A DNA stretch of 64,000 bases from a virus. This document shows positions 23,634 through 64,000 of the stretch, piece after piece (position 1 is the first letter of the stretch; each line of letters starts with the position of its first letter). The notes below the pieces were generated by a model. It did not search any database and was not told the DNA's origin. It saw only the letters and a program-made list of their open reading frames with translations. Position numbers and translations under genes: made by a program. The stretch lies in IMG/VR virus record IMGVR_UViG_3300029904_000004, positions 1 through 64,000 of that record; one strand, 5' to 3'.

Positions 23634-23667
23634 TACAATAACGCTTGCTAACCTTAGAGTATAAGAG

Positions 23668-25147: not shown

Positions 25148-25173
25148 AGTATAACAATTAAAGGCTGAAAATT

Positions 25174-25641: not shown

Positions 25642-25647
25642 TAAAAT

Positions 25648-26385: not shown

Positions 26386-26387
26386 TT

Positions 26388-26990: not shown

Positions 26991-27196
26991 CGTATAATAA
27001 AACGGCTGGTGGTCAACCCCGCACAGGGTGTATAGTGAAATCAGCACATTCTGTGTAATTAAATAAAAAACTAAAAACTCTTCCAAAGATGTTGATGGCA
27101 CCTTAGTTCTTATGATAAGCATAAGGCATTTTCAGTAAGTCCTTTATGTAAATGATAATGTCATAAGTTTTAGGTGTAAAACACAAATCTAACATT

Positions 27197-30848: not shown

Positions 30849-33800
30849 TTATCTTAAACTTTCACGCAATTCGCGTTGAAATTCATTTTTTTCTCTATTG
30901 ATTTCTCTCATCTCTCTTCGTATGTCAGGATCTACATATTTTTTAGTCTTTTTAGATTTTTCATCGTTTTTACCAAATATTTGATTTCTAAACGGCATAA
31001 TACTCTTATAATATTTGGTATTTTGATTTATCACATAAGATCCACCTCCTCCGAGAGATTTAGGCATATTCGTATACCAGTTATGTAATCCGACAAAATT
31101 CAATACGTTGAACGTGTGGTAAAATAATCGGCTATGTCCTTTATAATTTCCATTTTTTACAGGATCGTCCAATTTATGATTACTTAATTCTAATGCCTCC
31201 ATTATCATATCTATAGCATGCGCATTTTTATCAAACGACGACGTTGCTGAAGTTATAGATCTGATTAAATCATTCAATGTACTCGCACTATAAAATGTAG
31301 CTCTATCAATAGTCAAACGTATTAAATTATTCTACATCATGTACAACAAGAAATAATCGTCATCGTCAGGATCTTTGTCTTTTAATAAAGAATTCATGAT
31401 AGAATCTATTAAAACTAATAATGCTATAGTTCCAACTTCCATCATAACACGATTCAATGCATAAATTTCATGTCTATTTATGTTATTCTGACCCATTATT
31501 TCTGAAGTTTGGTCAGAATATGTTCCATGTTTAATTGATGCAGAAACGTATTTTAAATACGGCCATATTTTCAAAATTGCAGCAAATGCAGATCTGTATA
31601 TTCCGTTTTCTATTCTGCCTGTTTGAAAATTAAATCCTCCTGTAGGACTATTTTTCTTTACATCGCGTAGATTTTCAGGATCTATAGGACTATTATACAC
31701 AACACCTGTGTTAGGATCTACTTCTCCGACAAAATCTTGATAGTTCTAAAACCTTTCCCACAAACCTACAATTAAGAAGTTACGCATCATAGTTATGAAC
31801 TACGTCCACACATTAGTTTGAGCCCACGTTCTTTCCGCATCCTGTATGATTCCTGTATAAGCGGCAGATCTGGATCTTATCTGTTGTCCTACTTTATACA
31901 AATCTTTTTCAGATATTTCTGTATCATCTTTAGGAACAAATCTTCCATTTTTGTCTCGTTTCATCCGATCGTACATATTCACAGAATGTTTCCACATATA
32001 AATTGCATCTTTATACGTCATTCCTTTATTTTGAGCTTTTTGTAAAAAGGCTTGTTTATTCATCCATTCATGCGTACCATCTTCGTTTACATATTTACGG
32101 TATGCACGCATTGTGGCGGTCATGTTAAGAGCGTTTATGGTATAATCTCCTATAGTAAATCCTTTCATAAGAATTCCGTCAGATACGAATCTCCTTAAAG
32201 CACTTTGGTCTGTATTTTTAAATGTGTCATATATTCCTCTAGATAGACCAAAATACTACATGCCTGCAGTTATTTTACTATACGTATTAACTCTACCCAA
32301 ACTGGCTAAAGCTCTAAATGAATTTATCGTCAGTCGACTCATTGCGAAAAACAAATCTTTTTTATTAATGTATCTTCCGGTGCTTGCGTCTATTCCTAAA
32401 GATACCGCTGTATCCCAAAAAGACACTACCGCAGATCTTAAATTTAATCCCAACATACCTAAACTACTAATCGCTCTAATTTGACCTAGATGTTTTAACC
32501 ATGTTGGAGTATCTGCAACAATATATCTTCGAACCCAATCAAAATATTTCCATTTTTTATCATCGCCGTAATTTTTACCGAGCCCTGTAGATAAATTTTC
32601 GTAATACTGTCTATCCATCATTCCTTCTAATACCGAAATCTAATTAGAACCAGTACCTTCTGCATACGATTTGGCTGCATCTATAATAGCCTATACTTTA
32701 GGTGCCGATTTAGATTTCACTTTATAGTTTTCAGCCATTTTCCAAAAAAGAACAACGTTGCCGATTATATTGGTACTTATATATTCCGGTTTTTCCAACA
32801 TTTGTAGATATCTTACTGGAATATTTTTAATATCAGAACCGTCTGGACGTTTGGTATAATTATACTGTACAAGATCAACATCCGATTCGTTTGGCATAAA
32901 CCATCTATTGAACCAATATGCTAAATTTTTACCAAATCTGGAAAAGAATTTTCGCATCATTATATTAAAAAACCTACTTTCGCCAACTTGTACAAGTCTC
33001 CCATCGTACGGTTTTGAAAACGGTATCTTTTTAAAACTTTCACCCATCAATTCGATACATCTATTCAAAAGAATACGGTTTTCTTCAGATTCGTTTACAA
33101 ATTCGTCATACCTTTTATCGTGATACAAAGCATCTTTTATTTGTACAGCCTCCTGATTAGAAGTGTCAAAATCTTCATTTACATATTCTTTAGAACTATT
33201 TTTAAAATCTATTTTTGAAAACATTCTAATAGGGGTGCGTATTATGCTATTATGTACTTTACCTTCGCTACGGAACTGTTTCAATTGTTTAGGATACGGT
33301 GTTGTAAATATGGACAATGGGTCGTCGTAAGCATAAAACGTTGATTTTATTTTTTCATCTATTTCAGATTCCGATAAACCTTTAGTACGTAAAAATTTAA
33401 TATACCCGTACTTCATTTCTTCAAATTTACTACCTATTAAGTCGGGAACAAGGTCGTACTGACTGTTACTGCCTGCAAGATATATATAATCAAAAATATC
33501 ACTAAACTTAATGTCGTTTTCGTCATACGAATACGTCTCGCGTATAGTTCCTGATAATTTTTTTATTTCAGAATCTAATCGAGCAAGTTCTTTAAAAAAT
33601 TCCAAACTCTTTATTTCACCGGTATTTTCATCATATAATTTATCCCAGTTTATTTGATAAAATTCTTCTCCTCGAACATACGATAATAGTTTAGAGCGTC
33701 TTTTTTTCAGGATATTTAATTCTTTTTCCATATCCTCCATTGAAGAAGGTGTGGGTTTTTTTGTTATTTTTGACCACAATAACGGATTTATTACACGTTT

Positions 33801-36095
33801 TGTAAACATCCTGTCAAATTCTTTTTTGTTTCTGGCTTTCTCTCTTGCTTTTTCATACATGTCCATATCGGACACATATTGTATTTTACCAGCTATGTGG
33901 GCATTCCAATTAGTAAGCTCTTTCGCCGCTTTTCCGTATTCATCTTCGTCGTCTTTAATTGTTCCGTCGGGATTATAAGGATTAGACAATTCCGAATATT
34001 CTTCCTAATATCTATGTAAGTCGTCTAGTTGAGCATCGGTTAACAAATCAGGTCTAAATTCTCCGTCAACTGTACCAGCTTTAAGTACATCGTTTATCTT
34101 CGACTATACTTCGTTTAATAATCTTAAAGTAGAAGGAGATAAATAATCTATTCGCTCTAAATAATATTTTTCTGTAAATCTACGATTAGCGTGATGGCAT
34201 ATCCAACTCTCCATATCACGAAAATAGCCTTTACATATATCGTCAAGCCTTTCGTCTTCTGGGAATACAGGGTCTCCGAATTGGTTTATTTCGAGATTAA
34301 ATTCGCCATTTTCGTCTCTGAAAATATATCGCCCATTTTCGTCTTTCATGTTTGCGATACGTTCTACAACACCTCCTCTAGTGTATAACAATTTTGCTCT
34401 ATAGTCTTCTAAATCTTGATAATACTGTCCTTTATTGATCGGCTCTATGAAATAACCTGTGGTAAGACCTCTTCTGTCTAATGCAGCCATGCGTTTTTGA
34501 TAGTTTCTCTATGTAAATCTGCCTTTCCACTTAGAAGCTTTTATAGCATTTCTATATAATTTATTTAGCTCCAAACCAACTTGCATTGCTGCTGTATGTA
34601 CTTCATTCTGATCTTTATCTATAATTTCCTGAACAAGACGTATTAAAATACTTTTAGATCTACTACCTATGCCTACATACCGCTCGAACGCTTTAACGTC
34701 TCCGTAATCGAATTGATCCTTTAACCATTTTATAGTGTTTACACGAAGACGCTCCCTCTTATCGCCGTCTATTTCTGCAGAATCTAACTCATCTATAGCT
34801 TCATTTATATACTATTCAACTTTCGTACGTAAAGAATCAATATACATGTTTTGTAGAGTAGATACTCGTTGTATAATATTACTGTCTCTCAATAGATCTT
34901 TTAATGCTTGTACAGATTCCTGTATATTTTCTAAAAGCTACTGCTCTTCAGACGAAGGGTTTTGAGGTAAGAAGTCTAAGTTGATATTATCCAACATACT
35001 TTGCATTTCAGATATAATCTTAAAATAATATCCTACAACGTCAGTATGAGTATACGTCAATTGGTCAAAATCTAACTCCTCTGAAAACTATGCGTTGCTG
35101 GCATTAAGTAATTCTCCGTTATTGTCTGCGTATATTTTTCTTCCTGTTCTTGGATCGGTGTTATAAAATACTCTTCGATAATTATTAGCTTTTGCATTAG
35201 CTACCAATGATATACAATTAGTGATTTCCTAATTTGCACGAGATATAAAGTCAGAGAATAGGTCTAATTTCTACAATAACTCCATACAATCATTTCCGCT
35301 CTATACCGCCTCTGATATTCTTGTATTGTGCATTTTAACATTACGAACAGCTTCTTGATTTTCTACAATTTGATTCGAATCTACGTGCTAATTGTGTTTA
35401 GACTTCGATGACTTTTGTTTACTTATAGTACCCTCTATGATTTTTGTAGTAATTTTATCAATCTCTTCTTGAGTAGCAGTTTTTCTACCTTTAGATATAA
35501 AAGTAATAAATTTTTTATTTCTCCTGGCAGCACGTTTAGCTCTTCTGTATGCGTTACGAATTCTTTCCGTAACTCTAGTAGGATTTTCTACGTCTTTCAA
35601 AGCCTCCCTTTCGTTACGTATATTTTCACGCTCAACAGTGTCCGATTCAGGAGTTTCTTTTTCTCTGTCATCCAACTCGGCATTGACTATTTCTATTGTA
35701 GACTTTCCTTCAGAAGCTGCTTTATACGCTAATACAGAATTTATATAATCCTTTTCCTCTTGTGTAAATGCGTATTCTTCGTTTTCTAGTACAGATATTA
35801 CATCCTGGGCTAAATATTCTCCGTTTTCATCTACACCCGAGCTGTCTTCAACCTGATCTTTAAAACGCTGTAAATACGTTTTTCCTTTCTACTGAAGGGC
35901 TTTCTACCTATTACCTGAGTAATAGTCCATAAGGTCTTTAAAAAGCCTTGAATTGGCCCCATTTGGGGCCTTATCCAAAGCGTATCCATTGTTTCTGTCC
36001 CATAGGAGATAAGCCATATCTTCTCCTACAGCTTGTACAAGTTCTTCAAATTCTTGTTTTACTTGTTTATTACTAAAATTCGGACAAAATATCAT
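30849..36095 (-). CDS. large late/virion protein (~1,748 aa) readable only with TAG as sense
   Basis: Eight track fragments (30849..31316 through 35904..36095) share one frame. Every internal break is TAG and the gaps I walked have no TAA or TGA. The true stop is TAA at 30849. The ATG at 36093-36095 overlaps the upstream TGA (ATGA). One spot near 34440-34500 could not be reconciled with the track (see rejected items). Confidence 0.7.
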
Positions 36096-39000
36096 GATTT
36101 ACCTCCTCTGTTACAATGTTTATTAATTTGTTCCGCTTGTTTCTTTTCTTCAGGTGTTGTTAAATCTTGTATGTTTCCGGACAGGGAAGCAGTAGGTTTC
36201 CCAGAATTATCTGTTAATACACGTGGTTGGTTATTTCCAACGTCTACACGAGTGATTTTTCTATCTACAATGTTTCCATTATCGTCGTAATACCTAAAGC
36301 TGTTAGAGTCTGATTGACCGGCATAACAATATGCACAGCTACTGAAACACTTCTTTTCGTTCATTCTAAACATATCCTGATGTGCGCCATAACACATACA
36401 ATCAGGTCTAGAAGTATCTCGCTTATATGTACCGTCTTCAGAAGTAACATCTACACCTGTAAGCCTTTCGATAATCAATGGGTCGAGACACGCAGAAGCT
36501 TTCAGCCCTTGTACAGTAAACGAACAAGTTTCTATTTCTATTTCCGGATCTTTATTCAATTCTCGTAAAATATCACCTACTTGATCTACATACTCGAATT
36601 TAGGAGTAAAGTGTATCTTCCCGATACTACTAGCAGTTACAAGTCGTATTCTCTCAGCAAAGGCTTCGCTTATCATTCTACCCCACCAAGCTTTTATGTT
36701 AGCTTTAGCTTCAGGATGTTTTTCCTTGAAGTTATTCATGAATTGATTACTTATATTCACATCGTCTTGTGAAATTATTCCGTAATACTCTTCCCAGTTA
36801 TACGATTGTCCAGCTTCAGCAAGTGCTGTATTGATACCGCTCACAACTTTTCTCGTGCTAGATGTACCTTCGAGGTAACCGTAAGATTGTACTAACGAAG
36901 TTACAAATTTACGGATACCCATAGACTTACAACGAGCTACAATCTTCTTAATATCCTCCATATTTGTATATCCTACAAGTATAGGGTCTAATCTAACTGT
37001 AGTTGTACGAGGATCCAAATCTCCAGCTTGTATCAATTGTTCAATCCTATCTAACAAGTCGTCGTATTTTAATACACCTTTTTCTAATGGAGTATCTCCT
37101 AGACCTGTAATACTAAAGGAAACCATTGGTGCAACTTTATATTGCTTACAAGCTCTTAATATGTTTTGTATAGGTAGACCGTCATGTTTGGTCCATAGTT
37201 CCATCGCATAATATCTACGAGTATCTCCGAACGGAATTTTATCATTCTCTTCGAGACTTTTGATTATTTCGTTAGCGAAGAACGCAGGATCTGTAAATCT
37301 ACTAACAGATTTTATCATAAGTTTACCAGTCTTGTCGAACACCTGTTTTAATTTAGATATTTCCTCTTCTGTAAACACAGGCTTCACCGTATCTAAGACA
37401 TCTTTAAATGTTAAACCTTTCTTGACAGTTTTTACAGTATCTTGTATCTCAGATGCAACATTAGGATCGTCTTTACCCCCGAGTATTTCTTCAAGATCTT
37501 CCATCTACTGTCTTGCTATAGAAATCTAATCTTTATTATTTATCAAATATCCTATCACCGTAGCGTGACTCGGTCTATTCAATTCTTTATAATAAAGGAT
37601 TGGGGTATTTAATGGAGATTGCAGTATTTTATTTATTATAGCCTGTCTAAATTCTTCAGTAGCCTTCGTATTATCATAATTGTCTCCATACAATAACCAG
37701 CGGTAAAATTGGTCAACAGTACCCGCACCTCTCACAGATTCTGAGAACGGATTTCCGATAATTCCCTATTCTACCGCTTCGGGAGTGTTGTAATTATTAA
37801 AGTTCACTCTATACGCAACTATGCCGTCAGGATTGTTCTTTTGCCATTCTTTATAGTTAGATCGTAAGTTCTAATCTATATATACTCCGTATGTTGCAGT
37901 AAGTATTGTATTCGATGTTGGATCAAATCTTGCAGTATTGCTTTTAGATAATACCAAACCGTATCCGTCATAACCTTCTTGCGTATTCTTTATTACCTCG
38001 TATCGCACTCCTAATTCGTTCTATATTTTTTCTTGTAACCATTGCGCAAACCTTAAAGGAAGTGCCGAACGTCTTGTAGCCATTTGTTTAGGAACAATCA
38101 GTTTAGAGTATTCTGAATTTTCATATTTGGATCTAATATACGCAAAAGCCCGACTATTTGCATTAACAAACGCCTTAAAATCAGAATCTGTATCTTCAAA
38201 TTGACCTTCGTATTGTACGAAATCCCCAGATTCGTTTTGTTGATATTTCTTAACAACTATTCCTTCTGCGTTTTCCGTAAGCACGTTGTTAGAATCGGTA
38301 CGTATTACTGCCTGATTTGTGCCGTTCGCTGACGATACATTTAACTGTAAACGATCTGTTTGAGGAATAGATTCATTTTCCGTATCAAACCCATATATTT
38401 TAGACTGTACTTGCAGATTTTCTGTATAAAGATAGAAATAATCTCTATTTTCTTGCGGTTCGTTTTTATGATATCCTGTAGACGTTTCTACAGTATATAT
38501 ACCAAAACGACCTACGGGAGTGTATACGTCTTTATTTCTACCAACATGTAAAGTCGCAAGTTCTTCAGCACTTATTCCTATAGGATTCTGGAACTTACGC
38601 AATAAAACAGAGCCGTTCAAAATATTTCCGTCTTCGTCGAATTTTACGAAATTCTTTAAGATATCGTCTATTCTGGATATATATTGTTGTGCTGTTGTAA
38701 CTGGTATATTTTCCCTTTCGTATATATGTTTATAAACGTCGTCTCGCTCAATACTGTAGAATTGGTATACTTGAGAACCTATTTTAGTAGAGAATCCTTT
38801 AGGTGTAACCAATCCGTACACAGGTCTCGCAGCACCATTTTTAGTAGCATACGTTGCGATGTTGGTATATAATAAGAATGAGTCTGCACTATTCCTGTTG
38901 GTTCCATTTCTTCTTAATTTTATATATCTCGGGAATGTACCTGTATTTTCTATTCTACGTATATCGTATGTGGGGAATAATATAGCGTATTCACTAGCAT

Positions 39001-42000
39001 CTACAATTTCTCCATTTTCGTCAAGAATGTTGAAATGTCTAGATGTTCCTACAAATCTGTTTACTGATAGACCATCATATGTTGTCGTATATTTATCTGT
39101 ATACGGAATAATTGTGTCGTCGTATGCAAAATTCATAAAGAATTCATCAATATCGAATGTAAATACACCATCTGTACGAGATTCGTCAGAATTAACAATC
39201 TCAACATCACCGGACATAAACTGCTGGTGAGCTTGTCGTATATACTGGTCGTATCCAAAATCTCTTCTCCAGCTTATCGGTACATATTTAAAGAATTTAG
39301 TAAACCCTCTACTATCTGCAGAAGTCATAAATGCGTATATTGCAAGATCGTTAGCTAACTTTCTAATAGCAAGACATTCTTTTGTTAGATTTCCGTCGTC
39401 ATCTGTAACAGTAAATTCTAACAATTGCTGCCATGCGTCAATATAATTATTCATTCCTTCTTGAGAATCGTCCTGTGTATTGTCGAGAGTAATAAAATCG
39501 TAATGTTCGTTTCCAAATTTAGTTAAATACGGCAATCTTCTCAGATTATTGAGTAAGGGGTTAATTATAACTCCGTTAGAAACAAGTTGTTCATATTTAC
39601 CAGATGTATCTTTTAATAACCACTGTTTCAATCCTTCTATCCTTGAAGCAAGTGTACGATTCCCATAAATCATATTTCTCCAATCATCCTCTGTAAAATT
39701 ATTATCACGCAAAGCTTGATTCATACATACTTGTTTTATATACGAAAGTAATGAATTTGCAACTTTTGTATGAGCGGATTCGCTATCGTCGTTAATGTAT
39801 CTACATATATAATCGGTAAGATTACTAAATGATGGAGTAGCTTGTATAGCAATCTGTCCCATAATAAACTAAAGTGTAGTACAACCTATTCTGGTCTTTT
39901 TGTCTATAAACGAATCTTTCACCATATTGTGTAAGGTCTTTTGGTCGAACATGGGGTTTTCAAGCAGTTTGCTATATTTTTTGATATACGACAGTTGTTG
40001 CTGAACCGTGTTTCCTTGTTTCTTGGTATCTATTTTAGTACATTGTACCAGATCATTCAGCGCATTGGCATAAGGAGCAAAAGCATCTTTAGTAATATAC
40101 AATATTTGTTGAATATCTTTCGGTGAGTACATTTTACCATCAATGTCGTATATTTTTTCAGTACTCATATTAGATACCGTAAGACCTTTATTAGGATCTA
40201 TTTTAGACCGTTTATTAACAAGAATATCTTCCAATATGGACCTTGTACCATCTATGAATTTAGGATCGAATATTTTTTCGATTATTTCAAAATAGTTTTT
40301 CTAAACACCCTTTTTAACATTGTCTTTTGATTTAGCATACCGATCCAAACTGTTATCTCCAAATGTATTATGAATATATTCTTGTGTTTTTTTCTATATT
40401 CTTATATATATTGGAGTTGCTGCATCTTCAACAATATTACCAGACTCTCTCAGTTCTACCTATGCTAATTCTCTAATTACAGGTTGATTTAAGAAATACA
40501 ACGCCTAATTTCCAAACCCTGTACGTAATAACAAGTTTATTAAGTTGTACGTAGCTCCGTTTATATTTAATCCTGTCACATACGGATCTTTCGCAATGTC
40601 TACGTGACCATTGATTAAAGCACTGATCCACGATAGTATAGCGTTGCCTTCGTCGTCTACAATGTTACCGAGATTATTTTTATGAAGGAACGTTAATATT
40701 CTACTTGGATTGTGGGCGAATTTTATACCGTATATTTGGCATAATATTTGATTGTTGTTGTTAAGGGCAAACGGACCTATTCCAACCTTTCCTGTAGCAA
40801 ACTGCTGCATCGTTTTCACCTAATTTGACAACTGTTCGTATTGATACGGTTCTACCTCTTTTGCGTAAGCTCCTTGTATTTTACTTACAATACTTGTCAC
40901 TAAAGAAGTATCGTTATCAATAGATCTGTACTTCAAGTGGTCATAACGACGATCTTTAAGTAAATTCAGATACGCTCGCAGCATTTCGTTTGCTAAATTC
41001 TATTTGCCATCCTTCAGATTTATTGTGGTGACTTTTGTACGAGTCTTCTCTTTACCGTTCTTGTCGATATATTTTTCTATAATCTTGTCGTAATATAAAG
41101 AAGACAACATTAATTTATCGATGTCGAAATCGGAACCGGTCAGTTTAGTAAATTCTTTTGGAAGTATTATAGTATCTCTGACTACAGGTATTACGTCTAC
41201 AAATCTTAATGCGGAAATAGATGCTAGCGCCTAAGTAGGAATACGATATCCCATAGTTTGGGCAGAAGCATTATGCCATTCTGTTTCCCCAGTTTTTACA
41301 CCTGAAATAATATCGTTGTCGATAAGCCATTGTTTTGCCTTATTAAAATTGTAAAATATTCCAGGTGGGATTATGTCTTTAAAATAATCTATACTTATCA
41401 CGGCGTCCATAGAACCTTCTTCGTTTATCATCTACAAAGGTTTTCCTCCGTTGAGTTCGTATTTAGAATCCTTATCAGATATAACCTTCATCGGAGAATC
41501 CATACCAAATACAGACCTTTGATAAAACGCATTTCCTTTGAATGTTATGTCTATCGCATTCTTATTGATGACCGAATTTATTATTGTTTCCAGCCACTGT
41601 ACATTGGATACGGTATTTATGTCTACCGGGAATCGTACTGTTTCAGGTATAATATTTCCATCGTTATCTGTTTCGTACGTACAGGTTAATGCATCCAGTA
41701 TATTTTTATCCGCATTTCTATTTTTAAGTTCATTAATCGCAAATTTTGAAAATTTTACAAGGTCTATTTGACCGTTTTTGTCTGTAAACTATTCCATTAC
41801 TCGGTTGTACCCGATGTCTGCCATTTCATTCATTCGGCTCATTATGTAGCTCACATATTCTGAACCGCTGACCGATTTAATTACAATCTTTCCATCTTCT
41901 ACTACAGGCAAAGAATATATCTGTTCAGGTCGTATTGCACTCAATGCTATTTTCATAGCCTGTGTACCTGCCTGCATTTCTTCATCTTCTCTCGGGTCAG

Positions 42001-53176: not shown

Positions 53177-53184
53177 ATTTAATT

Positions 53185-54843
53185 TTACTGATTAATTGCA
53201 AAATCTACATCCGTCTGCTTTGCTACACCGCCGTTCCCTAAAGCGCCGGATACTCTAGATTCATAAGCACTCATCCTAGATAAAGTTTCTTCAGAAGGAA
53301 ATAACGATACCGTGTCGGAATTATTTGGAGTTGGATCTCCATACTATATAGGCATATACGCCTGTTGTAAATATTTCGTATTTCTAGTTTTAGGATTTCC
53401 ATCACTGTCGTATTCCAACGTCGATGTATATAGATTTACTTGTTGATATTGTTTTGGTCTACCTTGTGCATCGTATTTATAGAATACTTTTCCAGTAGGT
53501 GCTGCAAGTAAATTTTTACCATTTTTAAGTTTATTATAAAACACGTTGTTGTATTTATAGTTAACTGCGCCAAGAGTGTTCTATACATACTGACTCGTAG
53601 TCTCCATTCCGCCAATATCTGCAGTAGACAATTTCATATATTTGGTATTGGTTTTTGAATCTACAAATATATCGTTATTTGCTTTACCGTATCTCAATAT
53701 TTGTATTTCAGGATCTTCAACAACACCTCCGTTGCTATATTGTAAAAATTTACGCTTATATTCGGAATAATTAGATTTTTTCAAATTAGCATTATTCTAT
53801 TTCCACGTGTTGAACGCTTCTTTACCGTGTTTTGAAGCATAGTCAGCAGCTTCGTCCGCACCTTTATTTAAATATTTACCAATAGCATTCGGAATTAAAG
53901 CCAGAGCTCCTCGTATAAATAGGGACTGGTGATAATTAAATTGTCCCTTTTGTTTCTTTTCTTGTGCTTTTTGACGTGCAGCTTGTGCTTGTCTTTGTCT
54001 TGCTAACGCATGTTGATGTTGTAGATTCTCCAACGCAAACTGATTTACTCTACGATCATTCATTAAATAATCAGTATTAGCACTTACAATGTCGTTCATC
54101 AATATATCCTAAGCTCTTTTTTCTATAGATGCTTGAGATTCTCCGGGAGTTGCAGTTCCTTGCGCAACTCTTTTAGCACGATCGTAAAAATATCTACCAT
54201 AATCGCTTGCAAGGAACGCTTTTATCTGAGTATTGGCTGTTTCTCGCATATCGCCTTCGTCATATCCGTAATAATCATATCCGCCTTTCTACCCTTTAAA
54301 TTTGAGAGTTCTGTGCTGGAACCACGGATCTGTAAGAGTTCTAAGACCTTTATATTCTGTCGGGGAAGTTCTATCCCACATTCCTTGTGACAACGTATCG
54401 TAATTACCAAATTGTCTGTCTCCTAACAAGAACTGTTCAAATTCTGGATTATATTTACCTTCGGCCTGTAATTTAGCCCTGTTAGCTAAATATTGTTGTC
54501 CTGTAGCAGCGGACTGCCTTAACTATGATAGCTTCTCTCTCGGAATCTGTCTCATAACACTAGCCATTGCAGCACGACCTTCTTGAGACCTTAGAGGATC
54601 TATTCCGTTCTTTTCGAGAAAATTGTATGTCTGTATAACCGGATCCATTGTAAGCCTATCCCAGTTCTCAACATCTTTTTGGAAGGGACTTATAAAATCT
54701 CCGTACTTAGATATAAAATCTTCTTGTTGTTTAATTCCTCGCTCGTATTCATCTTTTGCAGCATTTATGTACAATCCCATCATTCCAGAATCATACAAAT
54801 CTACAACAGGATATAGAGCGGCTTCATCACGACCATATATCAT
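53185..54843 (-). CDS. late structural protein (~552 aa, 6 in-frame TAG)
   Basis: Fragments 53344..53544, 53581..53784, 53797..54102 and 54523..54843 share a frame and break only at TAG. TAA stop at 53185. ATG at 54843 with an in-frame TGA just upstream. Confidence 0.7.
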
Positions 54844-56902
54844 ACCAATTCCTCCTTCCGTAATTCATTGAATAATCAGGTGTAAAATTCCACTCGGGCA
54901 AAGTACTACCGTACATCCATTTAAACGCATTTGTAGGTATCCAAGTATTTGTATAAGGATTGTCGTTGCGTGAATACCATGGAATATATGTTGAAGCAGT
55001 CGATGTGGTCTACTGTTTCTATTCGGGATTACTATTTGTAGCACCTGCGTTAGCCCATTTAAATTCCAAATCCGCTCTATCGTTAGCCAATCTCTGTCTA
55101 TAGAAATCTGCGGTATCCATCCAAGTATTATATTTAAACTCGTTTTGATACATATTATTCATCTGATTAATAATATTAGCTATAGCAGTATCTCTATTCT
55201 TGTACTTAGCACCGTGTGAAGCAGTATAGTTTTCGTAGTCTTGCTGTGCGGCAGCCATTCTTGCAGATCTATCTTGCTGTCCTGCATTGAGTAATGAGGT
55301 ATAATAATCCTGTCTGTACTTATTATTTTGTGCAGCAGCGTTTGCGTAAGTATTAGCTATATTTCTTTGCGTTCCTATAGTATTGGCTATTTGTGCAGCA
55401 GCTCGTTGACCAGCCGTCAATCCACCCATGTTATTTATTCCGTAAGCCCCTCTACGCTCGGCATTACGTATAGCTTGTAACTCTGGGTATATATCATATC
55501 TCAATGAAGCCAACCCTTGCAAAGCTCTGTTTGCATACGGATTACTCCTATATGTATTTGTAGTGCTTACAGGTTGATTATTGTACGTTAAATACTGTCC
55601 CAAAGAAGCTGCCAAACCTACAGCGTTAGGCATTATTCTCTAATACCACGGCATATCACTTCTTTGACCAACATTCGAATAATCTGGTATTGTGATATTT
55701 ACAGCATCTTTACCGGGAGCATAATACCCTAAAGCCTATTTATTTTCGATCTGGTGCTGTTTTTCTTGTCTAGCTGATATATCTGCCAGAGCGTCTAAAA
55801 GAGGCTGTTTACGGCGATTTATTTCACGTTCTTGGACATTCTGTGTTTGCTTGCTTAATGAACTTTTATCGCTGTACTTATTTGTACGCTTTGTAATGTC
55901 ATTCAACATCTGCAATCTTGCTGTATAAGGTGCAGCCTAATCTGCAAATTTAATTCCGTTAGTCCAGTCTATATCGTTACCGAGTATTACATTATTATCG
56001 TCAGGATGTACAGATGAAGGTTGGTTATCTACACCTTTCGTACCTTTAGTAACAAGCGTTCCCTTACCCGTGTTGAAGTTAATTATACTCTCTCCTTTAC
56101 CTACCATACTGTTTATATGTCCATTACGATAACCAGATGGTGTCCATACTTTATTCATGTCTTTACCTTTATTTGCGTATAATATTCCAGAACTGTTATC
56201 GTCGTTTTCGTTATAATAATTCTATTGTAGTGCTTGAGTATTGGCTCCAGTTCTGTTATAAATATTTGTCCTATTTACTTGTCGCTAAGCTTCCCTCATT
56301 CGTTCAAGTAGCTTCTTTCTTCTACGACTACCTCCAAACAAACCTCCGATTAAACCTACAACTCCACCAACGGCGGTACCTATAGGCCCAAAAGCACTAC
56401 CTAACTACGCTCCAGATGTAACAGCATTTAATGTGTTAGAAGCATTCTCAGCCTACAATTGTTTTAGGTTTGCCTATTCGTCTATAGAATTTTGTCGTTC
56501 ATAATCTATTCCGTTTATAGTCCCTTGTGTAGAACCTGCTTCAGACATCAATTCGTTTTGCGATTTTACAGAATTTGTATTAAACGCATTGATCATGTTT
56601 GCCGCAAAATTAATTCCTTCTGTTATCGGCAAACCTTTCATTCCACCACCGGCAGCTTTATTTGCACCTTCTACTGGGACTGCTTTAACATTTTGGAGAC
56701 CTTGACTCGCATTGTTTTGAAGTATGCTGTTCGGAATCATATTCATCGAAGGCTTCGGTAGATTCTCCATAGAGGTCATTTGTATACGTCCAGAAAGCGT
56801 CCCTGTGTCGATAGGACTGTACGGTTTGAATGCGTATGCTTCTTTTCCTACTTTATACTACGGTTTTGTATTTTTAATGTATTTATATTTTCTTAAGTCC
56901 AT
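54827..56902 (-). CDS. late structural protein (~691 aa, ~11 in-frame TAG) with a Gly-rich hydrophobic segment
   Basis: Fragments 55019..55633, 55937..56158 and 56474..56779 share a frame. TGA stop at 54827. ATG at 56900-56902. Segment LGSAFGPIGTAVGGVVGLIGGLFGG followed by SRRRKK. Confidence 0.65.
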
Positions 56903-59900
56903 GACTATCTATATTTTGTAATAATGTAAGATATTGAGGTATTACCGTTAGCTGGTTCGTTTTCAATTGTACACAACATATATTTACCTCTAACTCTATT
57001 ACCGTAAGAAGGTGTATTCCCGGCAACAGTTAGTGCTCTAGGTATAGAGTACCTAAAATTACCTTCTCGGTCCGTATATTTTAAATTATGTTCTACAGCA
57101 CGATTCAAATCCGTCTCCCATGCGTATGTGTGGTTTTTAGAATAGACGTCTTTATCGTAATTATCATATCCTCTAATCTCACTCGTCACTATTTCTTGAT
57201 TGTCGAATGTTTTTGTAATTAATGGGTTCGGATTTACTACATACTGGACATATGTTCGAATCGCATTGTCCTGCGTATTTACAGGAGCTTCTTCTGTTAT
57301 TTCGTTCCATTTGTATATTCCTAATTCTTTATCACCTATAATTCTTACTAAATATGTATCGTTATCGAACTACATTGAAGTGTTATACACCATGTCGTAC
57401 AATGATGTAAACATATTATACTTTTCGTTAAAGACTATTTGGTTATCTTGTGCCAATACATTAGATACTATCTCTTGATACTTCTAATCGTAGAACATGT
57501 CTAATTCTGTAGCAGCTTCTTCTTTCTACATGAGGTTGTTCGTTTGATATGATGTATTCACTTTCTAATACTGTTGATCTCCGTATCTACGTATTTCCTT
57601 ATTCTTATCGTCATACCAATATAAGTAAGATGCAGATTCTGTGTCACAATATTTTTCAGGACTCATACCTGAAGTTTGATCTAAATAATCGTATCTACTC
57701 AATACTCCGCCATTTCCAAGAATCAACATCTGTCCGTTATCGTCTGTAATTTGAGCTCGTTCGTTAATACTAAGTAATCCTACGGCGTTATTCTGCCAAA
57801 ATACCATCTTATCTTTAAACGACTCCATGTTAGTAACCTCTCCGTATCGATTATCTACGTCTATATAGTTATTTGGCATAAACGTACTCCAGGAATCTAT
57901 AGACTCGTTATTGGTTTTTGGGTTAGAATAGTATATTCGATAGTCTACATTCTGCAAATTATTAGACTCTTCTTCAGAAATATACGGCGTACTTAATTTT
58001 GTACTGTTTTGTGAAGAATAGACTGTATTGTAATTGTATAACGGATCTGATTGGCTATAATAACCGTATACATCAGAAGGTTTTATTTGGATATTAGTTA
58101 TTCCTTCTCTCTGATAGTTTCTACTAAATTCATTACCGTACGTATAAGCTAAGTTTATATTAGTTTCTACAGGTATAGAATATATAAAACATGTTACTTC
58201 GGGGTATTTGAATTTAGAAAACCAATATTTATGTTGTGAAACATACTCCAACGGCATTATAACACAATCTCCATCAAATACAACTAACGAATCTTTTTTA
58301 GATACATCTCCGTAACTATAATAAGTATTCAGTGTTCTAGAAGTATAATCAGCCCCTCCATATGGTATAGAACTTTTTCTTATATTACATAAGTATGTTC
58401 CAGCAACACTGTTTCTGAATATTACAGTACCACTGTTGTTTGTAAGATTATCGTATACCTATAGCTCTTCTAATGTAGTTTCGTCATATTGTCGTTTTCC
58501 GAGATCTACATCAGCTTTGTATTCTATAGTATCTTTCAATACATCTTTTGTAACGTCTACATAATTATTTACAGTATCTGTAGCTATCGTCTTGTAGAAT
58601 ATATTATCGTCATCTAATGTAATCAATGCTGTTCTACCTGCAGGACCTATTACAAAACTGTTCGAATGTGCAAGTCCTGCCCATTGACCATTTCCGTCGT
58701 TTTCGTTAATATAGTCCTACGTGTTTCCGTATACTCCAAGACTTACTACATTACTGTATTGATAGTTGTCTATTACAGTCAGATTATCTTGAAAACTTGA
58801 AACAATCGTAGTATTATTACCATCTTCGTTTTTCTCATCCGTGAACATTTCGTTCCACCCGATTTCAGAGGCAACTTTAAAACTTTCTATAGTATACTTA
58901 ACATTGTTCTAAGATAAATCGCACGTGTCATATTCCGTCTTACTGCCAACAATAGACTCGTAATCAGACTGAGAGCTGTATTTTCTTAAATATGTAGACT
59001 TAGATGTATGATATAATTTAGAATAACCGTATACAAATTTAGTTATTGGTAAAGATGATTTGTTGACATATACAACCTACGTATCATTCGGACTTCCCGG
59101 AGAACGATATGTTAATGTAGATCCATCCACAATATGTCTAGTCTGGTCATAAGAATCAGGTCCAAATCCCATTATCAATCTTTGCGGATATACACAATAG
59201 TATTGAACTATATCGTAATCTACAGGACTAAATATGGATTTTAACGAAATATTAGCGAGTTTATTATCATCACTGTCTCCAGAACCCACGTATAAAGAAC
59301 CCTGGTTTGGTAAAATAGGCATTCCGTACTACATATTTGTCGAGCCTATTTGTATAAATCGAGCTCTATCTTCCATGTATACACCATCTTGGGCGAATGC
59401 TTTATTGTCTCCTGCAGATCCGTTATAATCTTCGCCGTCTCTATAATAGTTATTCGGTTGATAATCTTCGGTCTATTGAAACATGTATGTTATCGGAGAT
59501 ATACTTAAATTATACGCACTTGTTAATTGTTCTATATAATCATTCTGATAGACAACTTCTGGAGATACAAACTAATATAGGTAATGGTTTTCATAGTTAC
59601 AAACTTCATCTTTATCCAAACCTGTATCTGTCTTACTTGTATTGTATGCTACAAATTCTTTACCAGACCAGAAGTTAGCAGTAGTTAACAAACCTGTAGG
59701 AGTATAAGGATAGCTCTCTATATTTTCTTTTGTAGCATTCTTGTTGATTATTTTCCTAACAGGTCTTGATATAACACCCTAAGTAATAGTATTTATATCA
59801 GATTCGTCTCTATTACACCTAACTATTTCGTATCCTACAATCTCTAAATCTTGAGAATAATCAAGGTTTCTGGACTATACAGTGTTACGTAATTGTGTAT

Positions 59901-61758
59901 TAATGGCTTCTATATCTACATTAAATTGTATACCTAAAGAACGTACTGTTAAATCTGACAAATATCCATTCACATATCCGTCGTGTACAAATGATTCAAA
60001 GCCTTTGAAGTTTGCAGCAGGTGTTCTTATATCTTGTATCCATTTTACAGAAGACGCTTGCCCTAACTTATTATAAAATATAATACCGTATCTATACAAC
60101 TCGTCACGTCTTAAAGATTTAAGAGCATAAGATACTACAGGATTTGAATAATTGTAACCGTATGAACTATCGTCATACACACTAGACATGTCTTGTTGTA
60201 CCTTATTTTGTATCGAACCGTTTTTGTCAATATTTCCAGTCCAAATACTGGTATCGAACTATTTTGTATTATCTAGCTTTTGAATATTGTTGTGTGTTCC
60301 GAATATGTGTTCGTGGTCTCCAACAACACGTCCTGTGAAAGTACAATCGTCTCCGGATAACTCTGTTATTACGAATTTCCAACTAACATATTTACCAGTA
60401 CCTCCATAATATCCGTCTTTGTCGAATCTACACCACACTCCTTTTTTATCAGAATCTGAAACAAAATGATTCGAATCCGCATAAGTTTGAGACATGTTAT
60501 TATATATGTTATAACAGTCTGCATTTTCAGGAATATCGTTTGGTATACTGTTTATATCGAAATCTCTTTCATTACTTTCATCAGAATATTTATATAGATA
60601 CACATGTCCGTCAGGATCTGCACTATAACATCTTGTATCTATGTCTTTCAAATACTCATCTAATTGCTGTACAGTATCTTTAATATTTGCTGCAAATAGG
60701 TAATCGTATTTGGATTCTATTACTTTCGGTATTATGTGTATTCCAGAAAGTCCGTTAAACTCTTCTAAAGTTAAATGTTGTAACGATTCGTTCCCGGAAT
60801 CCACGAAGTATATATCTCTGGCATCATCTTCACCGAGACCTATACTCCTATCGAATATTAAATCTATTTCCGGTTCTTGTCCCGTTTCTACGTATTTTAT
60901 TCGGTATAGCTGTATTCTGTTAAAGTTTTTTAATTCGTTGTCTAAATGTATTTTAACTCTAACGCCTTGTCCTACATGTTTGTCTTTATCTGCTCCGTTT
61001 ATATTTTTACCGTCCCCGTTGAAAGAACCTTCTTTGGAGTATACTATAGGTATCAGTTTTGTAGGGATAGACATGTCTGTACTAATTCCGTTTTTATTGT
61101 ATAGTACGTAAGCATATGACACCATTCCGGAAGTCATATTTCCTGCAGTAAGTCCACAGAAAACAGGGGGCAATAACAACGAAGATTGATGTGCTTGTAG
61201 TTTAGTAAAATCTCCATCGAGACTATCGTTATATTCATCGTCGAGAATATTTATCACCAACAGCTCTCTATATCCGTCCGCAATATATAATTTTATATTA
61301 TCTTCGTCTTCGTATTTTAGTTCTACGGACAATCTATCAATACCGTCAGGACCACCTAATACATCGTCATCTCTGTTTTGTGTTGAAGTGAATATTCTTT
61401 TACACTCTATTCCTTCATCCGTAAGCTTTAGTCTCACGATTGTCCACGAATACTATTGTTCTCCACTTTCTAAATGTAAAGATCCTTCTAAAATTATAAT
61501 TCCGTAATTTCGTATAGTTTCTGCTGCTAGTATCTTACCTATATCGAAATCCTAAAATAAACCCTCTGTTTCTAATATTTTCTTAACGCCTTCTATAGAC
61601 TTTATTTCTCCAAACTGATTTCCAGAACTACTTAACGGGAACACTCTTATATTTTTAGCATTTATATACTAATCATTCTGTATCATTTGTACAGAAGAAT
61701 CTGTATTCATGCCTTTTACAAATGTGTTTATAAACACTGTGTCTTGATTAGTAGCCAT
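56893..61758 (-). CDS. large late structural (tail-like) protein (~1,621 aa, ~18 in-frame TAG)
   Basis: Fragments 56905..57189, 57565..58257, 59077..59322, 59875..60189 and 60259..61437 share a frame and the gaps contain only TAG. TAA stop at 56893. ATG at 61756-61758 follows an in-frame TAA. Composition is rich in N, Y, S, T and G. Confidence 0.7.
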
Positions 61759-62677
61759 AATAATAATCGTTGTAATTTAATTGTCTACGACCAACACTAC
61801 TAAAGAATGTATCGTCAGCATCCCATTCAGGTACTAGTTTGGTCCATTCGTTCTTAATACTTCTAAGTTCTCCTTCTGTAGGCATCATGGCTTCTCCGTA
61901 AGCCTATCCTCTATAAAAATTCCACTGTGATTGTATATATTGATATACTCCGGAATTACCTCTAACTCTAGCTCCGCCTAATTTACCATTTAAGAATTTA
62001 GGGAAATTTAGCTTCATCATAACATACCAGTATATCGCTTCTTGGTATGATACTGTATCAGGTATTAAAGGATATCCTCGCTCATCTGTAGCCACTGCTT
62101 TGTATGATAGTTTTACAAATCCGTCTTTTTTATTAAATACTATCCAACCTGGTTTTATAAAGTACGTAGGTTCTTTATGCTTCATATCTATCATCCTACT
62201 TACATACTTGCTCAGATTTACGCCGTAAAACTGTGATTGTGATGTTGGTAGTTTGTACCTCATAGGTTGATGTTCAGGCTACGGTTTAGTTCCTACATAC
62301 ATCGGTTTATCTTCTATAGCCACGTTTGCAGGATCGTACAACGGACCTTCTATTTGAGGCTTTGGTTTATTATCTCTTTTAGGTTCTTTGAACATTGCTG
62401 TTTCTGAACGTACAGGAACCCAGAATGATCTATCTGCTCTATTAGAGTATGCGATACCTTGTAGTCTATATAAATCATCCGGCATTGGTACCTGATAGTC
62501 CTCTATCTTTATCGGAGGTGTTTCTACGTCGATATATTGTACAGGAGCTCCTATTTTCTCAACAGCTTCAAATATCCATTCTCGTATATCTGATATTCGT
62601 ATATCTTTCTCAGACATGTTCGAGTCTGCCATTATTTTTGCTATAACAGGCTCACATTTTGTATATTTGTATATCAT
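61748..62677 (-). CDS. late protein (~309 aa, 2 in-frame TAG)
   Basis: Fragments 61904..62263 and 62279..62677 share a frame. TAA stop at 61748. Confidence 0.65.
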
Positions 62678-63101
62678 CTATGTTTATATAATCGTGTTTA
62701 TTAAATATAAGCTGTGCTAATTTACGTTTATTTGCTCGTACAAGTGATAATCTATATTTGTATATATCAGGGAATGTGTTTTCATTTTTAGACCAGTATA
62801 ACCTATATTTGTAACCATCACTATGCTCGTTTAAATGATATATTGTTTTACCGAGCTCGTTGCTTGTTTTATAATCCTTAGACAAGCTCTTATTTGTATA
62901 TGTTTTAGGCTTGTATTTAACTATGCATATAAAACCTAGTCTCTAAGGCATTTTAAAGCCTTCTGACGCGTTTAAAAGTAAATCCAGTAGATTTATATTA
63001 AACTGCTCTAAAATGCGCTTAAAACGCAAATATGACGTATTCTCGTCAATCTTTTTGTAAGCTTTATACATGTCCCTGATTGTAAATGATTTTTTCATCA
63101 T
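62652..63101 (-). CDS. HU/IHF-like DNA-binding protein (~149 aa, 1 in-frame TAG)
   Basis: Track fragment 62652..62885 extends through the TAG at 62943 to ATGATG at 63096-63101. The stretch GFKMP-*-RLGFICIVKYKPK resembles the HU/IHF beta-arm entry (GFGxFxV.xR). TGA stop. Confidence 0.55.
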
Positions 63102-63778
63102 GCTTTCCACCCTTTAAGTTCTAACGATTGTGGTTTAATATCTTCAAGGGTAGAGTTGTTTTCTTCATCACTTGGGGTACGAATTAAGAAGTTGAGTTCG
63201 TTCGCCATAATCATTTGCTTGATTTGCGGAACCATCCACCCGGGAATGTTTATTCCGTCCTCATCTTCTTCATCAGTATCTACAAATATACCAGTAAGCC
63301 ATATATATTTCAATTCGTTCTAATCTACAAGTCCTTGTATATACACACGATTGTTTGTAAAACTCCACGACAATTCACCAAATGTATACTTCCTGTAATA
63401 CTAAAAATGTCTGCGTTTACTATTCATGTACTAAATTGGACAACCTTCCTGATCGAATACTGCAATAATGTTGTATGGATCGTCTGCTATTAATTCGGGT
63501 ATATCTTCCTTGGTACGTTTTGTAAATAAACAAGAACCATCCAATCCTTTAACGTCTTCTAACTCCAAAGGACCGATGGTTTTGTACATACTCTTATCGT
63601 CTTCATCTTCTCCGTTATCACGTTCCCGATCTCTTTTTTGTTTGAGTAATAACGCTTTGTACGATAATATCCAGTGAGCAATCTACGCCCTAGAGAAGTC
63701 TTCACTTTCACTTATGTTGTTATTACGTAAAAGTAGCATTATGTCGTCTATTAACGACCTAAGTGAAAACATTTTCAT
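63098..63778 (-). CDS. late protein (~226 aa, 4 in-frame TAG)
   Basis: Track fragment 63098..63313 extends upstream through four TAGs to the ATG at 63776-63778. TGA stop overlaps the next ATG. Confidence 0.55.
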
Positions 63779-64000
63779 ATTTCTGTATTTTCTATTATTC
63801 TTACACTATCTTCTTTTATTAGTTCGTTACTGTTTACTATCTTATACTTATATTTAGTTACTTTTTTCCAATCTAATGTAAACAGTCTCTAAAAGAAGTT
63901 CTTCTTGTTTTTATATTCTTTCTTTTTGTATACATACAGATATTGCTGATTACGTATATCTACTCTCATTCGTATACTGTCTTTATCTATATTATAATAT
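63775..64000 (-). CDS. 3' end of a further late gene (partial; continues beyond the window)
   Basis: The frame is open from 64000 down to the TGA at 63775-63777 with one in-frame TAG (~63889). ATGA junction with the next gene. Confidence 0.45.

What the first reader, a model, noticed from the sequence alone, without database searches (positions are those of the whole stretch)
30849..64000. The whole minus-strand late block is written in a TAG-sense code that the standard-code ORF track cannot see
Seen directly: every minus-strand fragment I examined in the track (about 45) ends at plus-strand CTA, which is TAG.
- **Shared frames:** neighbouring fragments keep one frame over very long runs. 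End coordinate mod 3 is 2 for 30849-36095, 1 for 36092-53026 and 0 for 56905-61437.
- **Gaps:** I walked the inter-fragment gaps codon by codon and found only TAG, never TAA or TGA.
- **Real gene ends:** with TAG read as sense, all nine genes end in TAA or TGA, often at ATGA-type junctions (36092-36095, 63098-63101, 63775-63778).
- **Count:** by hand I get roughly 125 in-frame TAG in about 11,000 codons.
- **Likely amino acid:** many TAGs sit in Gln-rich text, for example KE*RR*EIEQSKQNR*D*I*Q, DN*NQN and F*QV. Gln (translation table 15) is therefore the best guess.

Stop-codon reassignment in late genes is documented for some crAss-like and Lak phages, so the phenomenon has precedent. This instance would be missed entirely by default annotation.
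Basis: partly seen in the sequence, partly recalled or inferred. Interest (0 to 1): 0.9.

Follow-up and report, generated by a model that had tools for sequence, protein, structure and literature searches.

The report
Amber-recoded late genes, crAss-like phage
The right half of this window is the late-gene block of a crAss-like gut phage that reads the stop codon TAG as glutamine; this is real, but it is a well-documented habit of this phage group and public gene calls for this same contig already use it.

Summary
If only TAA and TGA are treated as stops, minus strand 30849-64000 becomes nine back-to-back genes: 8 complete and 1 cut by the window edge. They hold 11,073 codons, 124 in-frame TAG and no internal TAA or TGA.

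- **Gene identity:** the merged genes match single genes of Crassvirales phages (Suoliviridae, Oafivirinae) in the same order, including a 5,694-aa giant gene.
- **TAG means Gln:** in distant homologs Gln faces TAG 7 times more often than background. In strains 90-99% identical, TAG swaps almost only with CAG or CAA.
- **Early block:** the plus-strand block has no internal TAG in 7,216 codons.
- **Suppressor tRNA:** none lies in the window. A sister strain and three RefSeq relatives carry a tRNA with anticodon CUA at the head of the late strand, beside dUTPase. The matching 3.4 kb of the source contig could not be fetched.
- **Novelty:** late-gene TAG-to-Gln recoding in crAss-like phages is published and confirmed by proteomics. 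Public gene calls on this contig already use it. This is a new member of a known kind.

In passing I found a roughly 2-kb ORF-free element at 16426-18498. It shows strong base-pair covariation across related phages and has no Rfam match.

The parts
30849..36095 (-). Last gene of the late block: 1,748 aa, 18 in-frame TAG, ends in TAA. Its start overlaps the stop of the giant gene (ATGA).
   Evidence: It sits in the same position as cr7_1 gp33 and cr273_1 gp36. No sequence match at E<=1e-10 and no PHROG hit.
36092..53176 (-). Giant late gene: 5,694 aa, 63 in-frame TAG, ends in TGA. The C-terminus carries DUF1848, and a ...TGSDFDIDKL... motif is visible in the sequence.
   Evidence: It aligns with cr7_1 gp32 (5,444 codons, 148 TAG) and cr273_1 gp35 (5,795 codons, 36 TAG). 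Public gene calls on this contig list it as one 5,694-aa product.
53185..54843 (-). Late gene: 552 aa, 6 in-frame TAG, ends in TAA.
54827..56902 (-). Late gene: 691 aa, 11 in-frame TAG, ends in TGA.
56893..61758 (-). Crassvirus tail muzzle protein: 1,621 aa, 18 in-frame TAG, ends in TAA.
   Evidence: tblastn covers 99% of it with one 'virion structural protein' gene of cr124_1. Pfam crAss_MUZ is recorded on the public call.
61748..62677 (-). Ring protein 1 (Pfam CrAss_Ring_1): 309 aa, 2 in-frame TAG, ends in TAA.
   Evidence: (50-57% identity to relatives).
62652..63101 (-). 149-aa late protein, 1 in-frame TAG, ends in TGA. RefSeq annotates its relatives as 'topoisomerase'.
   Evidence: Public protein P0019 is identical, with Q at the TAG position. 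In six of eight close strains this codon is not TAG yet the protein is the same.
63098..63778 (-). Ring protein 2 (Pfam CrAss_Ring_2; phrog_9863, virion structural): 226 aa, 4 in-frame TAG, ends in TGA.
63775..64000 (-). C-terminal 74 codons of a 230-aa late gene cut by the window end. One TAG lies in the window and six in the whole gene. Ends in TGA.
682..30770 (+). Early and replication block, compatible with both codes. It holds 35 ORFs (7,216 codons) with no internal TAG, including an ECF sigma factor, DnaB-like helicase, AAA_24, an AAA ATPase and a PDDEXK nuclease. Three ORFs end in TAG (at 10005, 13439 and 23633), each followed by TGA or TAA 1-5 codons later.
   Evidence: The order is syntenic with the cr7_1 and cr273_1 replication modules.

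Best explanation
The window is bases 3295-67294 of a 98,241-bp metagenomic contig (ENA ERZ27239284, k119_37345). The contig is a Crassvirales phage closest to Suoliviridae/Oafivirinae.

**Shown**
- Its late (virion, tail, cargo and lysis) genes form one long leftward unit in which TAG is a sense codon.
- TAG most likely encodes glutamine (NCBI code 15) and supplies about 21% of Gln positions in the window's late genes.
- The rightward early/replication block contains no internal TAG, so it reads the same under either code.

**Inferred mechanism**
1. [quoted passage not shown]
2. A phage tRNA with anticodon CUA is then made. It lies outside the window, about 1.8 kb into the late strand and just upstream of a 163-aa gene and dUTPase.
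3. That tRNA is charged with Gln and lets ribosomes read through the TAG codons. Full-length late proteins therefore appear only once the suppressor is present.

This timing-switch role is the published model for such phages. It was not tested here.
For: **TAG is a sense codon**
- 124 in-frame TAG, no TAA or TGA, in 11,073 codons spread over nine contiguous genes that all end in TAA or TGA.
- The merged ORFs match single genes of cr124_1, cr7_1 and cr273_1 in the same order.
- Those RefSeq orthologs themselves carry 148, 60, 36 and 12 in-frame TAG.

**TAG means Gln**
- Distant homologs: Gln faces 27 of 113 aligned TAG positions, 7.1 times background, and 15 more columns are TAG in both. The log-likelihood for Gln beats the next residue (His) by 26 nats. 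The reverse direction beats Lys by 30 nats.
- Strains 90-99% identical: window TAG faces TAG 248 times, CAG 38, CAA 10 and all other codons 19.
- Per site: of 21 variable TAG sites, CAG appears at 14 and CAA at 3.

**Already in public data**
- Public gene calls on this exact contig give the same merged proteins with Q at TAG.

**Early block**
- No internal TAG in 7,216 codons. The three TAG 'stops' each have a backup stop within 1-5 codons.

**Suppressor tRNA**
- A sister strain (L046, 91-96.5% nt identity to this contig) carries a canonical cloverleaf tRNA with anticodon CUA at L046 6012-6085 on the late strand. It scores 50 bits against Rfam tRNA.
- It is 92% identical to the annotated 'tRNA-Gln' of cr130_1, which sits in the same place.
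- cr7_1 and cr273_1 also have a CUA tRNA beside dUTPase.
- In L046 the five genes upstream of the tRNA hold 1 TAG in 592 codons, while the genes downstream are TAG-rich.

**Literature**
- Delta-group crAss-like phages reassign TAG to Gln in late genes (PMC7886860).
- Peptides spanning TAG as Q were detected in two crAss-like phages (PMC9523058).
Against: - No suppressor tRNA lies in the window. It holds only tRNA-Lys(UUU), tRNA-Leu(UAA) and a tmRNA.
- None lies in the further 27.5 kb of this contig that I could read.
- The 3.4 kb where synteny places the tRNA (contig 94,815-98,241) could not be fetched, so its presence in this genome is inferred from a sister strain.
- The Gln identity of the tRNA could not be shown from its sequence. 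A D-arm search of bacterial genomes returned tRNAs of mixed isotypes.
- No release factor or aminoacyl-tRNA synthetase gene was found.
- There are no protein-level data for this phage.
- The host and its genetic code are unknown.
Confidence: 0.92

Rival explanations
1. TAG is a sense codon in the late block but encodes an amino acid other than glutamine, for example His, Ser, Ala, Asn, Tyr or pyrrolysine.
For: In distant alignments Ala, Asn and His are also mildly enriched opposite TAG, at 2.4, 1.9 and 2.9 times background. ARAGORN labels CUA tRNAs 'Pyl' by default. The isotype of the tRNA could not be fixed from its sequence.
Against: Gln wins the likelihood comparison by 26-30 nats in both directions. 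Among close strains TAG exchanges with CAG or CAA far more than with any other codon. The other one-step neighbours are nearly absent: AAG 0, TTG 0, TGG 0, TAT 1, GAG 2 and TCG 2. Proteomics on related crAss-like phages found Q at TAG (PMC9523058). No Pyl biosynthesis genes were seen.
Confidence: 0.04
2. TAG stays a stop codon and is bypassed by host-encoded or leaky read-through, without a dedicated phage suppressor tRNA.
For: No CUA tRNA was found in any part of this contig that could be read. Published surveys report recoded phages that lack a detectable suppressor (PMC7886860; bioRxiv 10.64898/2026.08.21.746148).
Against: A gene with 63 TAG codons cannot give full-length product by leaky read-through. 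A sister strain and three RefSeq relatives carry a CUA tRNA at a conserved position that falls in the unread 3.4 kb of this contig.
Confidence: 0.03
3. The block is made of decayed pseudogenes, or is an assembly or sequencing artefact.
For: Under the standard code the block looks shredded: 49 fragments covering 67.5% of it.
Against: All 124 interruptions are TAG and none is TAA or TGA (P about 10^-65). Reading frames are kept over as many as 5,694 codons. Identical sequence was assembled independently from several samples. TAG codons are conserved between strains about as well as CAG. Dozens of contigs of about 96-101 kb carry the same proteins.
Confidence: 0.005

Closest known systems
RefSeq Oafivirinae crassviruses: cr7_1 (Burzaovirus coli, NC_055895), cr124_1, cr273_1 (Buhlduvirus animalis, NC_055904) and cr130_1 (Chuhaivirus simiae, NC_055901)
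   Same: - The genome plan is the same: a rightward early/replication block converging on a leftward late block.
- The late genes come in the same order: ring 2, a 149-aa protein, ring 1, muzzle, two mid-size genes, a giant gene of 5.4-5.8 thousand aa, and a gene of about 1.9 thousand aa.
- They have in-frame TAG in the same genes, a CUA tRNA beside dUTPase and a tmRNA in the early block.
   Different: - They are only distantly related. The muzzle protein is about 30% identical, the ring proteins 44-65%, and DNA similarity is confined to about 2 kb at no more than 74%.
- TAG density differs: 63 in this giant gene, against 148 in cr7_1 and 36 in cr273_1.
- This phage is probably a separate genus, though ICTV criteria were not computed.
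TAG-to-Gln (code 15) crAss-like phages validated by metaproteomics (Peters et al. 2022, PMC9523058) and surveyed by Yutin et al. 2021 (PMC7886860) and Borges et al. (bioRxiv 10.1101/2021.08.26.457843)
   Same: Late structural and lysis genes are recoded, early and replication genes are compatible with the standard code, and a suppressor tRNA is the proposed switch.
   Different: There are no protein data for this phage. Its relationship to those particular genomes was not tested.
Amber-reassigned Crassvirales genome from Egypt (bioRxiv 10.64898/2026.08.21.746148)
   Same: A crassvirus of about 100 kb with two domains, one high in amber codons and one low. Coding density rises from about 59% to about 91% under code 15.
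   Different: That genome is assigned to Darmviridae and is reported to lack a CUA tRNA. It was not compared by sequence here.
Lak megaphages and other TAG-recoded gut phages
   Same: The same TAG-to-Gln reassignment, with suppressor tRNAs.
   Different: They belong to unrelated lineages, have much larger genomes and sometimes encode RF2. No release factor was found here.

Membership tests
Stop-codon-recoded phage, genetic code 15 (TAG to Gln) | Long coherent ORFs appear only when TAG is read as sense, and the other two stops are absent in frame | tested here: met
   124 TAG and no TAA or TGA in 11,073 codons. Coverage rises from 67.5% to about 100%.
Stop-codon-recoded phage, genetic code 15 (TAG to Gln) | TAG positions align with Gln in homologs | tested here: met
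   Gln is enriched 7.1-fold and is the best likelihood in both directions. TAG swaps with CAG or CAA in close strains.
Stop-codon-recoded phage, genetic code 15 (TAG to Gln) | Recoding is confined to late genes and early genes are compatible with the standard code | tested here: met
   No internal TAG in 35 early ORFs (7,216 codons), against 124 in the late block.
Stop-codon-recoded phage, genetic code 15 (TAG to Gln) | A phage-encoded suppressor tRNA with anticodon CUA (common in this group but not universal) | tested here: inconclusive
   Absent from the window and from the other parts of the contig that I read. Present at the syntenic site in sister strain L046 and in cr130_1, cr7_1 and cr273_1. 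The matching 3.4 kb of this contig could not be read.
Stop-codon-recoded phage, genetic code 15 (TAG to Gln) | Peptides that span TAG codons with Gln | not testable with these tools
   This needs proteomics. It has been done for related phages (PMC9523058).
Crassvirales (Suoliviridae / Oafivirinae-like) | Crassvirus hallmark virion proteins | tested here: met
   Pfam crAss_MUZ, CrAss_Ring_1, CrAss_Ring_2, CrAss_Ring_3_4 and Crass_capsid are recorded on this contig. The best tblastn hits are all Crassvirales.
Crassvirales (Suoliviridae / Oafivirinae-like) | Gene order shared with Oafivirinae, including the giant late gene | tested here: met
Crassvirales (Suoliviridae / Oafivirinae-like) | Placement by ICTV criteria (shared-protein thresholds, TerL/portal/MCP phylogeny) | not tested
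   No phylogeny was computed. Identity to the named genera is low (30-65% at the amino-acid level).

The most novel reading that the evidence does not exclude
The recoding itself is ordinary for this clade. The most novel reading concerns its surroundings. The standard-code early block of these amber-recoded Oafivirinae-type phages carries a conserved set of RNA genes. One is a roughly 2-kb ORF-free element (window 16426-18498, plus strand) with extensive base-pair covariation and no Rfam 15 match. It could be a new class of very large structured phage RNA. It sits alongside a conserved two-piece tmRNA and the amber suppressor tRNA. Whether it has any role in taking over translation or in the code switch is pure speculation.
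Probability: 0.4. Interest if true: 0.7.

Novelty: new member of a known kind. Interest (0 to 1): 0.25.

Why it matters
- **Annotation:** this phage, and the many contigs of about 96-101 kb from the same lineage in public assemblies, must be annotated with translation table 15. Otherwise about a third of the late block is lost and giant proteins are split into dozens of fragments. That is what happened in two GenBank relatives.
- **Biology:** this adds one more lineage to a known pattern and does not change current understanding. The layout is clean: genes with almost no TAG, then a CUA tRNA, then about 60 kb of TAG-containing genes. That fits the published model in which the suppressor acts as a timing switch for late genes.
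- **By-product:** the more interesting result is the conserved noncoding element of about 2 kb, which would merit its own study.

Tried and rejected
**Looking for the source sequence and close relatives**
- Megablast of 20 kb against GenBank phages found nothing.
- A single-protein search of IMG/VR with the muzzle protein found nothing.
- Exact 45-mer searches for the window end in IMG/VR, JGI metagenomes and GTDB genomes found nothing.
- The contig was finally identified through exact protein look-ups.

**Trying to reach the suppressor tRNA on this contig**
- Look-ups with standard-code fragments failed because the collection stores code-15 products.
- A metagenome scan with an early protein gave only distant relatives.

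**Trying to assign the tRNA isotype**
- Searching bacterial genomes for its D-arm gave mixed isotypes and chance hits, so it was uninformative.

**Trying to characterise the giant gene and the 1,748-aa gene**
- Pfam and PHROGs found only DUF1848.
- A PDB sequence search of the segment holding the DFDID motif found nothing. The virion RNA polymerase assignment therefore remains a guess.

**Rejected on the evidence above**
- Pseudogenisation or an assembly artefact.
- Reassignment of TGA or TAA. ORF totals do not improve on the minus strand.

**Checks on the 2-kb element**
- Repeat and promoter scans of the element and of the strand-switch region were unremarkable.


Full report
**1. The observation**

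The window is 34.7% G+C. GC and AT skew flip sign at about 30.8 kb, which marks a switch of coding strand.

With TAA and TGA as the only stops, the minus strand from 30849 to 63826 becomes eight contiguous ORFs. A ninth runs off the window end. Counted from the first ATG, the nine genes hold 11,073 codons, 124 in-frame TAG and no internal TAA or TGA. Four end in TAA and five in TGA.

Under the standard code the same frames give 49 fragments of at least 60 aa. Of these, 45 end in TAG and the other four are the true gene ends. The fragments cover 67.5% of the block, against about 100% for the merged genes.

From all-frame triplet frequencies, a 5,699-codon frame without TAA or TGA has a probability of about e^-267. 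The probability that all 124 interruptions are TAG is about 10^-65.

**2. What the sequence is**

- The merged 1,621-aa protein aligns over 99% of its length with one 'virion structural protein' gene of crAssphage cr124_1. All 50 tblastn hits are crAss-like phages.
- The RefSeq genomes cr7_1, cr124_1 and cr273_1 (Suoliviridae, Oafivirinae) have the same gene order. It includes a giant gene of 5,444 or 5,795 codons followed by one of about 2,000 codons, converging on a replication module.
- The window is 100% identical to ENA contig ERZ27239284:k119_37345, which is 98,241 bp long. Window position equals contig position minus 3,294.
- Precomputed Pfam hits on that contig label the window's genes as CrAss_Ring_2 (226 aa), CrAss_Ring_1 (309 aa), crAss_MUZ (1,621 aa) and DUF1848 (in the giant gene). 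Further along the late strand lie Amidase_3, CrAss_Ring_3_4, Crass_capsid and dUTPase.
- The plus-strand block encodes an ECF sigma factor, a DnaB-like helicase, AAA_24, an AAA ATPase and a PDDEXK nuclease.
- No GenBank phage is close. DNA similarity is at most 74%, over only about 2 kb.
- Public assemblies, however, hold dozens of contigs of about 96-101 kb with proteins at least 90% identical.

**3. Is TAG sense, and which amino acid?**

Three lines of evidence agree.

- *The orthologs are recoded too.* In RefSeq the orthologous genes carry 148, 60, 36 and 12 in-frame TAG and are annotated as single genes.
- *Distant alignments (24-65% identity).* Gln faces window TAG codons in 27 of 113 comparisons, which is 7.1 times background. 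Fifteen further columns are TAG in both sequences. An empirical-substitution likelihood ranks Gln first by 26 nats. The reverse comparison, using the relatives' TAG codons, ranks Gln first by 30 nats.
- *Eight strains 90-99% identical in protein.* Window TAG codons face TAG 248 times, CAG 38, CAA 10 and every other codon 19 in total. The other single-step neighbours of TAG are almost absent. Per site, 29 of 50 covered TAG sites never vary. Among the 21 that do, CAG occurs at 14 and CAA at 3.

TAG therefore behaves as a synonym of CAG and CAA. TAG supplies 21% of Gln positions in the block.

The public gene calls on this contig already contain these merged proteins with Q at TAG. One example is P0019, which is identical to the 149-aa gene.

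**4. The other half of the genome**

The 35 plus-strand ORFs (7,216 codons) have no internal TAG. Three of them end in TAG, and each is followed in frame by TGA or TAA 1-5 codons later. Their products are therefore almost the same under either code.

**5. How TAG is decoded**

The window holds tRNA-Lys(UUU), tRNA-Leu(UAA) and a permuted tmRNA, but no CUA tRNA, even at a permissive threshold.

I walked the source contig through exact-protein look-ups to position 94,814 and found no tRNA. The last 3.4 kb could not be fetched.

A sister strain (L046) is 91-96.5% identical in nucleotides to the flanking parts of this contig. It shows the following:
- The divergent early/late junction.
- A tRNA with anticodon CUA about 1.8 kb into the late strand, at L046 6012-6085. 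ARAGORN finds it, it scores 50 bits against Rfam tRNA, and it folds as a clean cloverleaf with the loop CU-CUA-AC.
- Then a 163-aa gene and dUTPase.

The end of that 163-aa gene and the dUTPase are also seen in this contig.

The tRNA is 92% identical to the 'tRNA-Gln' of cr130_1, which lies in the same position. cr7_1 and cr273_1 have a CUA tRNA directly beside dUTPase.

In L046 the five late-strand genes upstream of the tRNA hold 1 TAG in 592 codons. The genes downstream are TAG-rich: TerL has 7, the portal protein 12, and the next gene 18. On this contig the major capsid gene and dUTPase have none.

This layout fits the published model, in which early genes are read with the host code, the suppressor then appears, and late and lysis genes become translatable (bioRxiv 10.1101/2021.08.26.457843; PMC7886860). 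The order of events in time is inferred, not shown. I could not establish from its sequence that the tRNA is charged with Gln. No release factor or synthetase gene was seen.

**6. Comparison with what is known**

- TAG-to-Gln recoding of late genes is described for Delta-group (Suoliviridae) crAss-like phages (PMC7886860).
- It has been surveyed across gut phages (Borges et al.).
- It has been confirmed by peptides in two crAss-like phages (PMC9523058).
- It has been described again for a crassvirus of about 101 kb in 2026 (bioRxiv 10.64898/2026.08.21.746148).

This case is a new and fairly divergent member of that known kind.

A JGI/IMG copy has only fragments. GenBank records PV686213.1 and PP511876.1 are annotated as strings of tiny ORFs.

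**7. Found in passing**

The 2.07-kb stretch at 16426-18498 has no ORF under any single-stop reassignment. Six Oafivirinae genomes have an unannotated gap of similar size at the same syntenic place, with collinear islands of near-invariant sequence. A conserved motif from the element picks out 47 IMG/VR contigs, most of them about 95-103 kb.

On 20 representatives less than 95% identical to each other (mean identity 58%):

| Test | Predicted pairs | Pairs with changes on both sides | Energy (kcal/mol) |
|---|---|---|---|
| Element, plus strand | 247 | 142 | -246 |
| Column-shuffled controls | 119-146 | 14-29 | -68 to -100 |
| Reverse strand | 210 | 122 | -201 |

An independent MAFFT/RNAalifold run on one sub-domain gave 34 pairs, 13 of them compensatory. 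None of 500 shuffles reached the observed covariation. Rfam 15 has no match, and a literature search found no description of it.

This looks like a large structured RNA of unknown function. The structure was derived from the same alignments that were used to score it, so an R-scape-type test is still needed.

**8. Verdict**

The mechanism is very probably a phage amber-suppressor tRNA, which was not seen in this contig itself. Novelty is low.

Noticed in passing
window 16426-18498 (+): A roughly 2.07-kb stretch of the early block with no ORF. Six Oafivirinae genomes have an equally empty gap at the same place, and a conserved motif from it picks out 47 IMG/VR contigs. RNAalifold on 20 representatives gives 247 pairs, 142 with compensatory changes (14-29 in column shuffles), at -246 kcal/mol against -68 to -100 for shuffles, and the plus strand scores better than the minus strand. 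A tool check on sub-domain 17518-17935 gave 13 of 34 pairs compensatory, and 0 of 500 shuffles reached the observed covariation. No Rfam 15 hit and no paper found. It is a candidate new large structured phage RNA.
   Followed up: partly
window 11748-12110 (+): A permuted (two-piece) tmRNA in the early block: Rfam RF04321, 66.8 bits against a gathering score of 47. Its tag peptide is GNVNNIVDYTHVA and ends in TGA. cr7_1 and cr273_1 carry a tmRNA with a nearly identical tag at the syntenic place, so it is conserved in this amber-recoded clade. I found no paper that discusses it.
   Followed up: partly
window 10003-10014, 13437-13445, 23631-23651 (+): The only three early ORFs that end in TAG are each followed in frame by TGA, TGA or TAA 2, 1 and 5 codons later. 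Suppression of TAG would therefore add only a few residues. By rough estimate the joint chance is about 0.003.
   Followed up: partly
window 9128-9200 (+): A sub-threshold match to the type-P1 twister ribozyme: 36.5 bits against a gathering score of 67.2, E = 2.7e-4, covering the full model length. It lies in the intergenic gap 8913-9529.
   Followed up: no
window 36092-53176 (-): The giant 5,694-aa ORF contains ...TGSDFDIDKL..., a DxDxD-type motif reminiscent of crAss-like virion RNA polymerases, and a C-terminal DUF1848. Neither PDB nor Pfam supports the polymerase reading.
   Followed up: partly
L003 (PV686213.1) and L049 (PP511876.1): Two GenBank relatives, Bohxovirus 'endotrachealis' and Dulem virus 42, are annotated with dozens of tiny hypothetical ORFs across the late block. 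In the Bohxovirus record, reading TAG as sense triples the ORF content, but genes stay broken (longest 716 codons). That suggests additional indel errors or another feature.
   Followed up: partly
L039 2772-4298; L043 148-690 (same contig, outside the window): TAG use is uneven. The major capsid gene (508 aa), the 250-aa gene after it and dUTPase have no TAG. The 230-aa gene next to the lysis amidase has 6 and the amidase has 3. This fits the published bias toward lysis-region genes.
   Followed up: no
L046 6239-6331 (+): ARAGORN calls a 93-nt 'tRNA-Ile(gat)' 150 bp downstream of the suppressor tRNA in the sister strain, but Rfam does not detect it. It may be a tRNA with an insertion, or a false call.
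   Followed up: no
L046 9027-12188: In the sister strain the gene at the TerL position is 1,053 aa and has weak intein and LAGLIDADG Pfam hits. In this contig it is 687 aa. An intein is therefore present in one strain and absent in the other.
   Followed up: no
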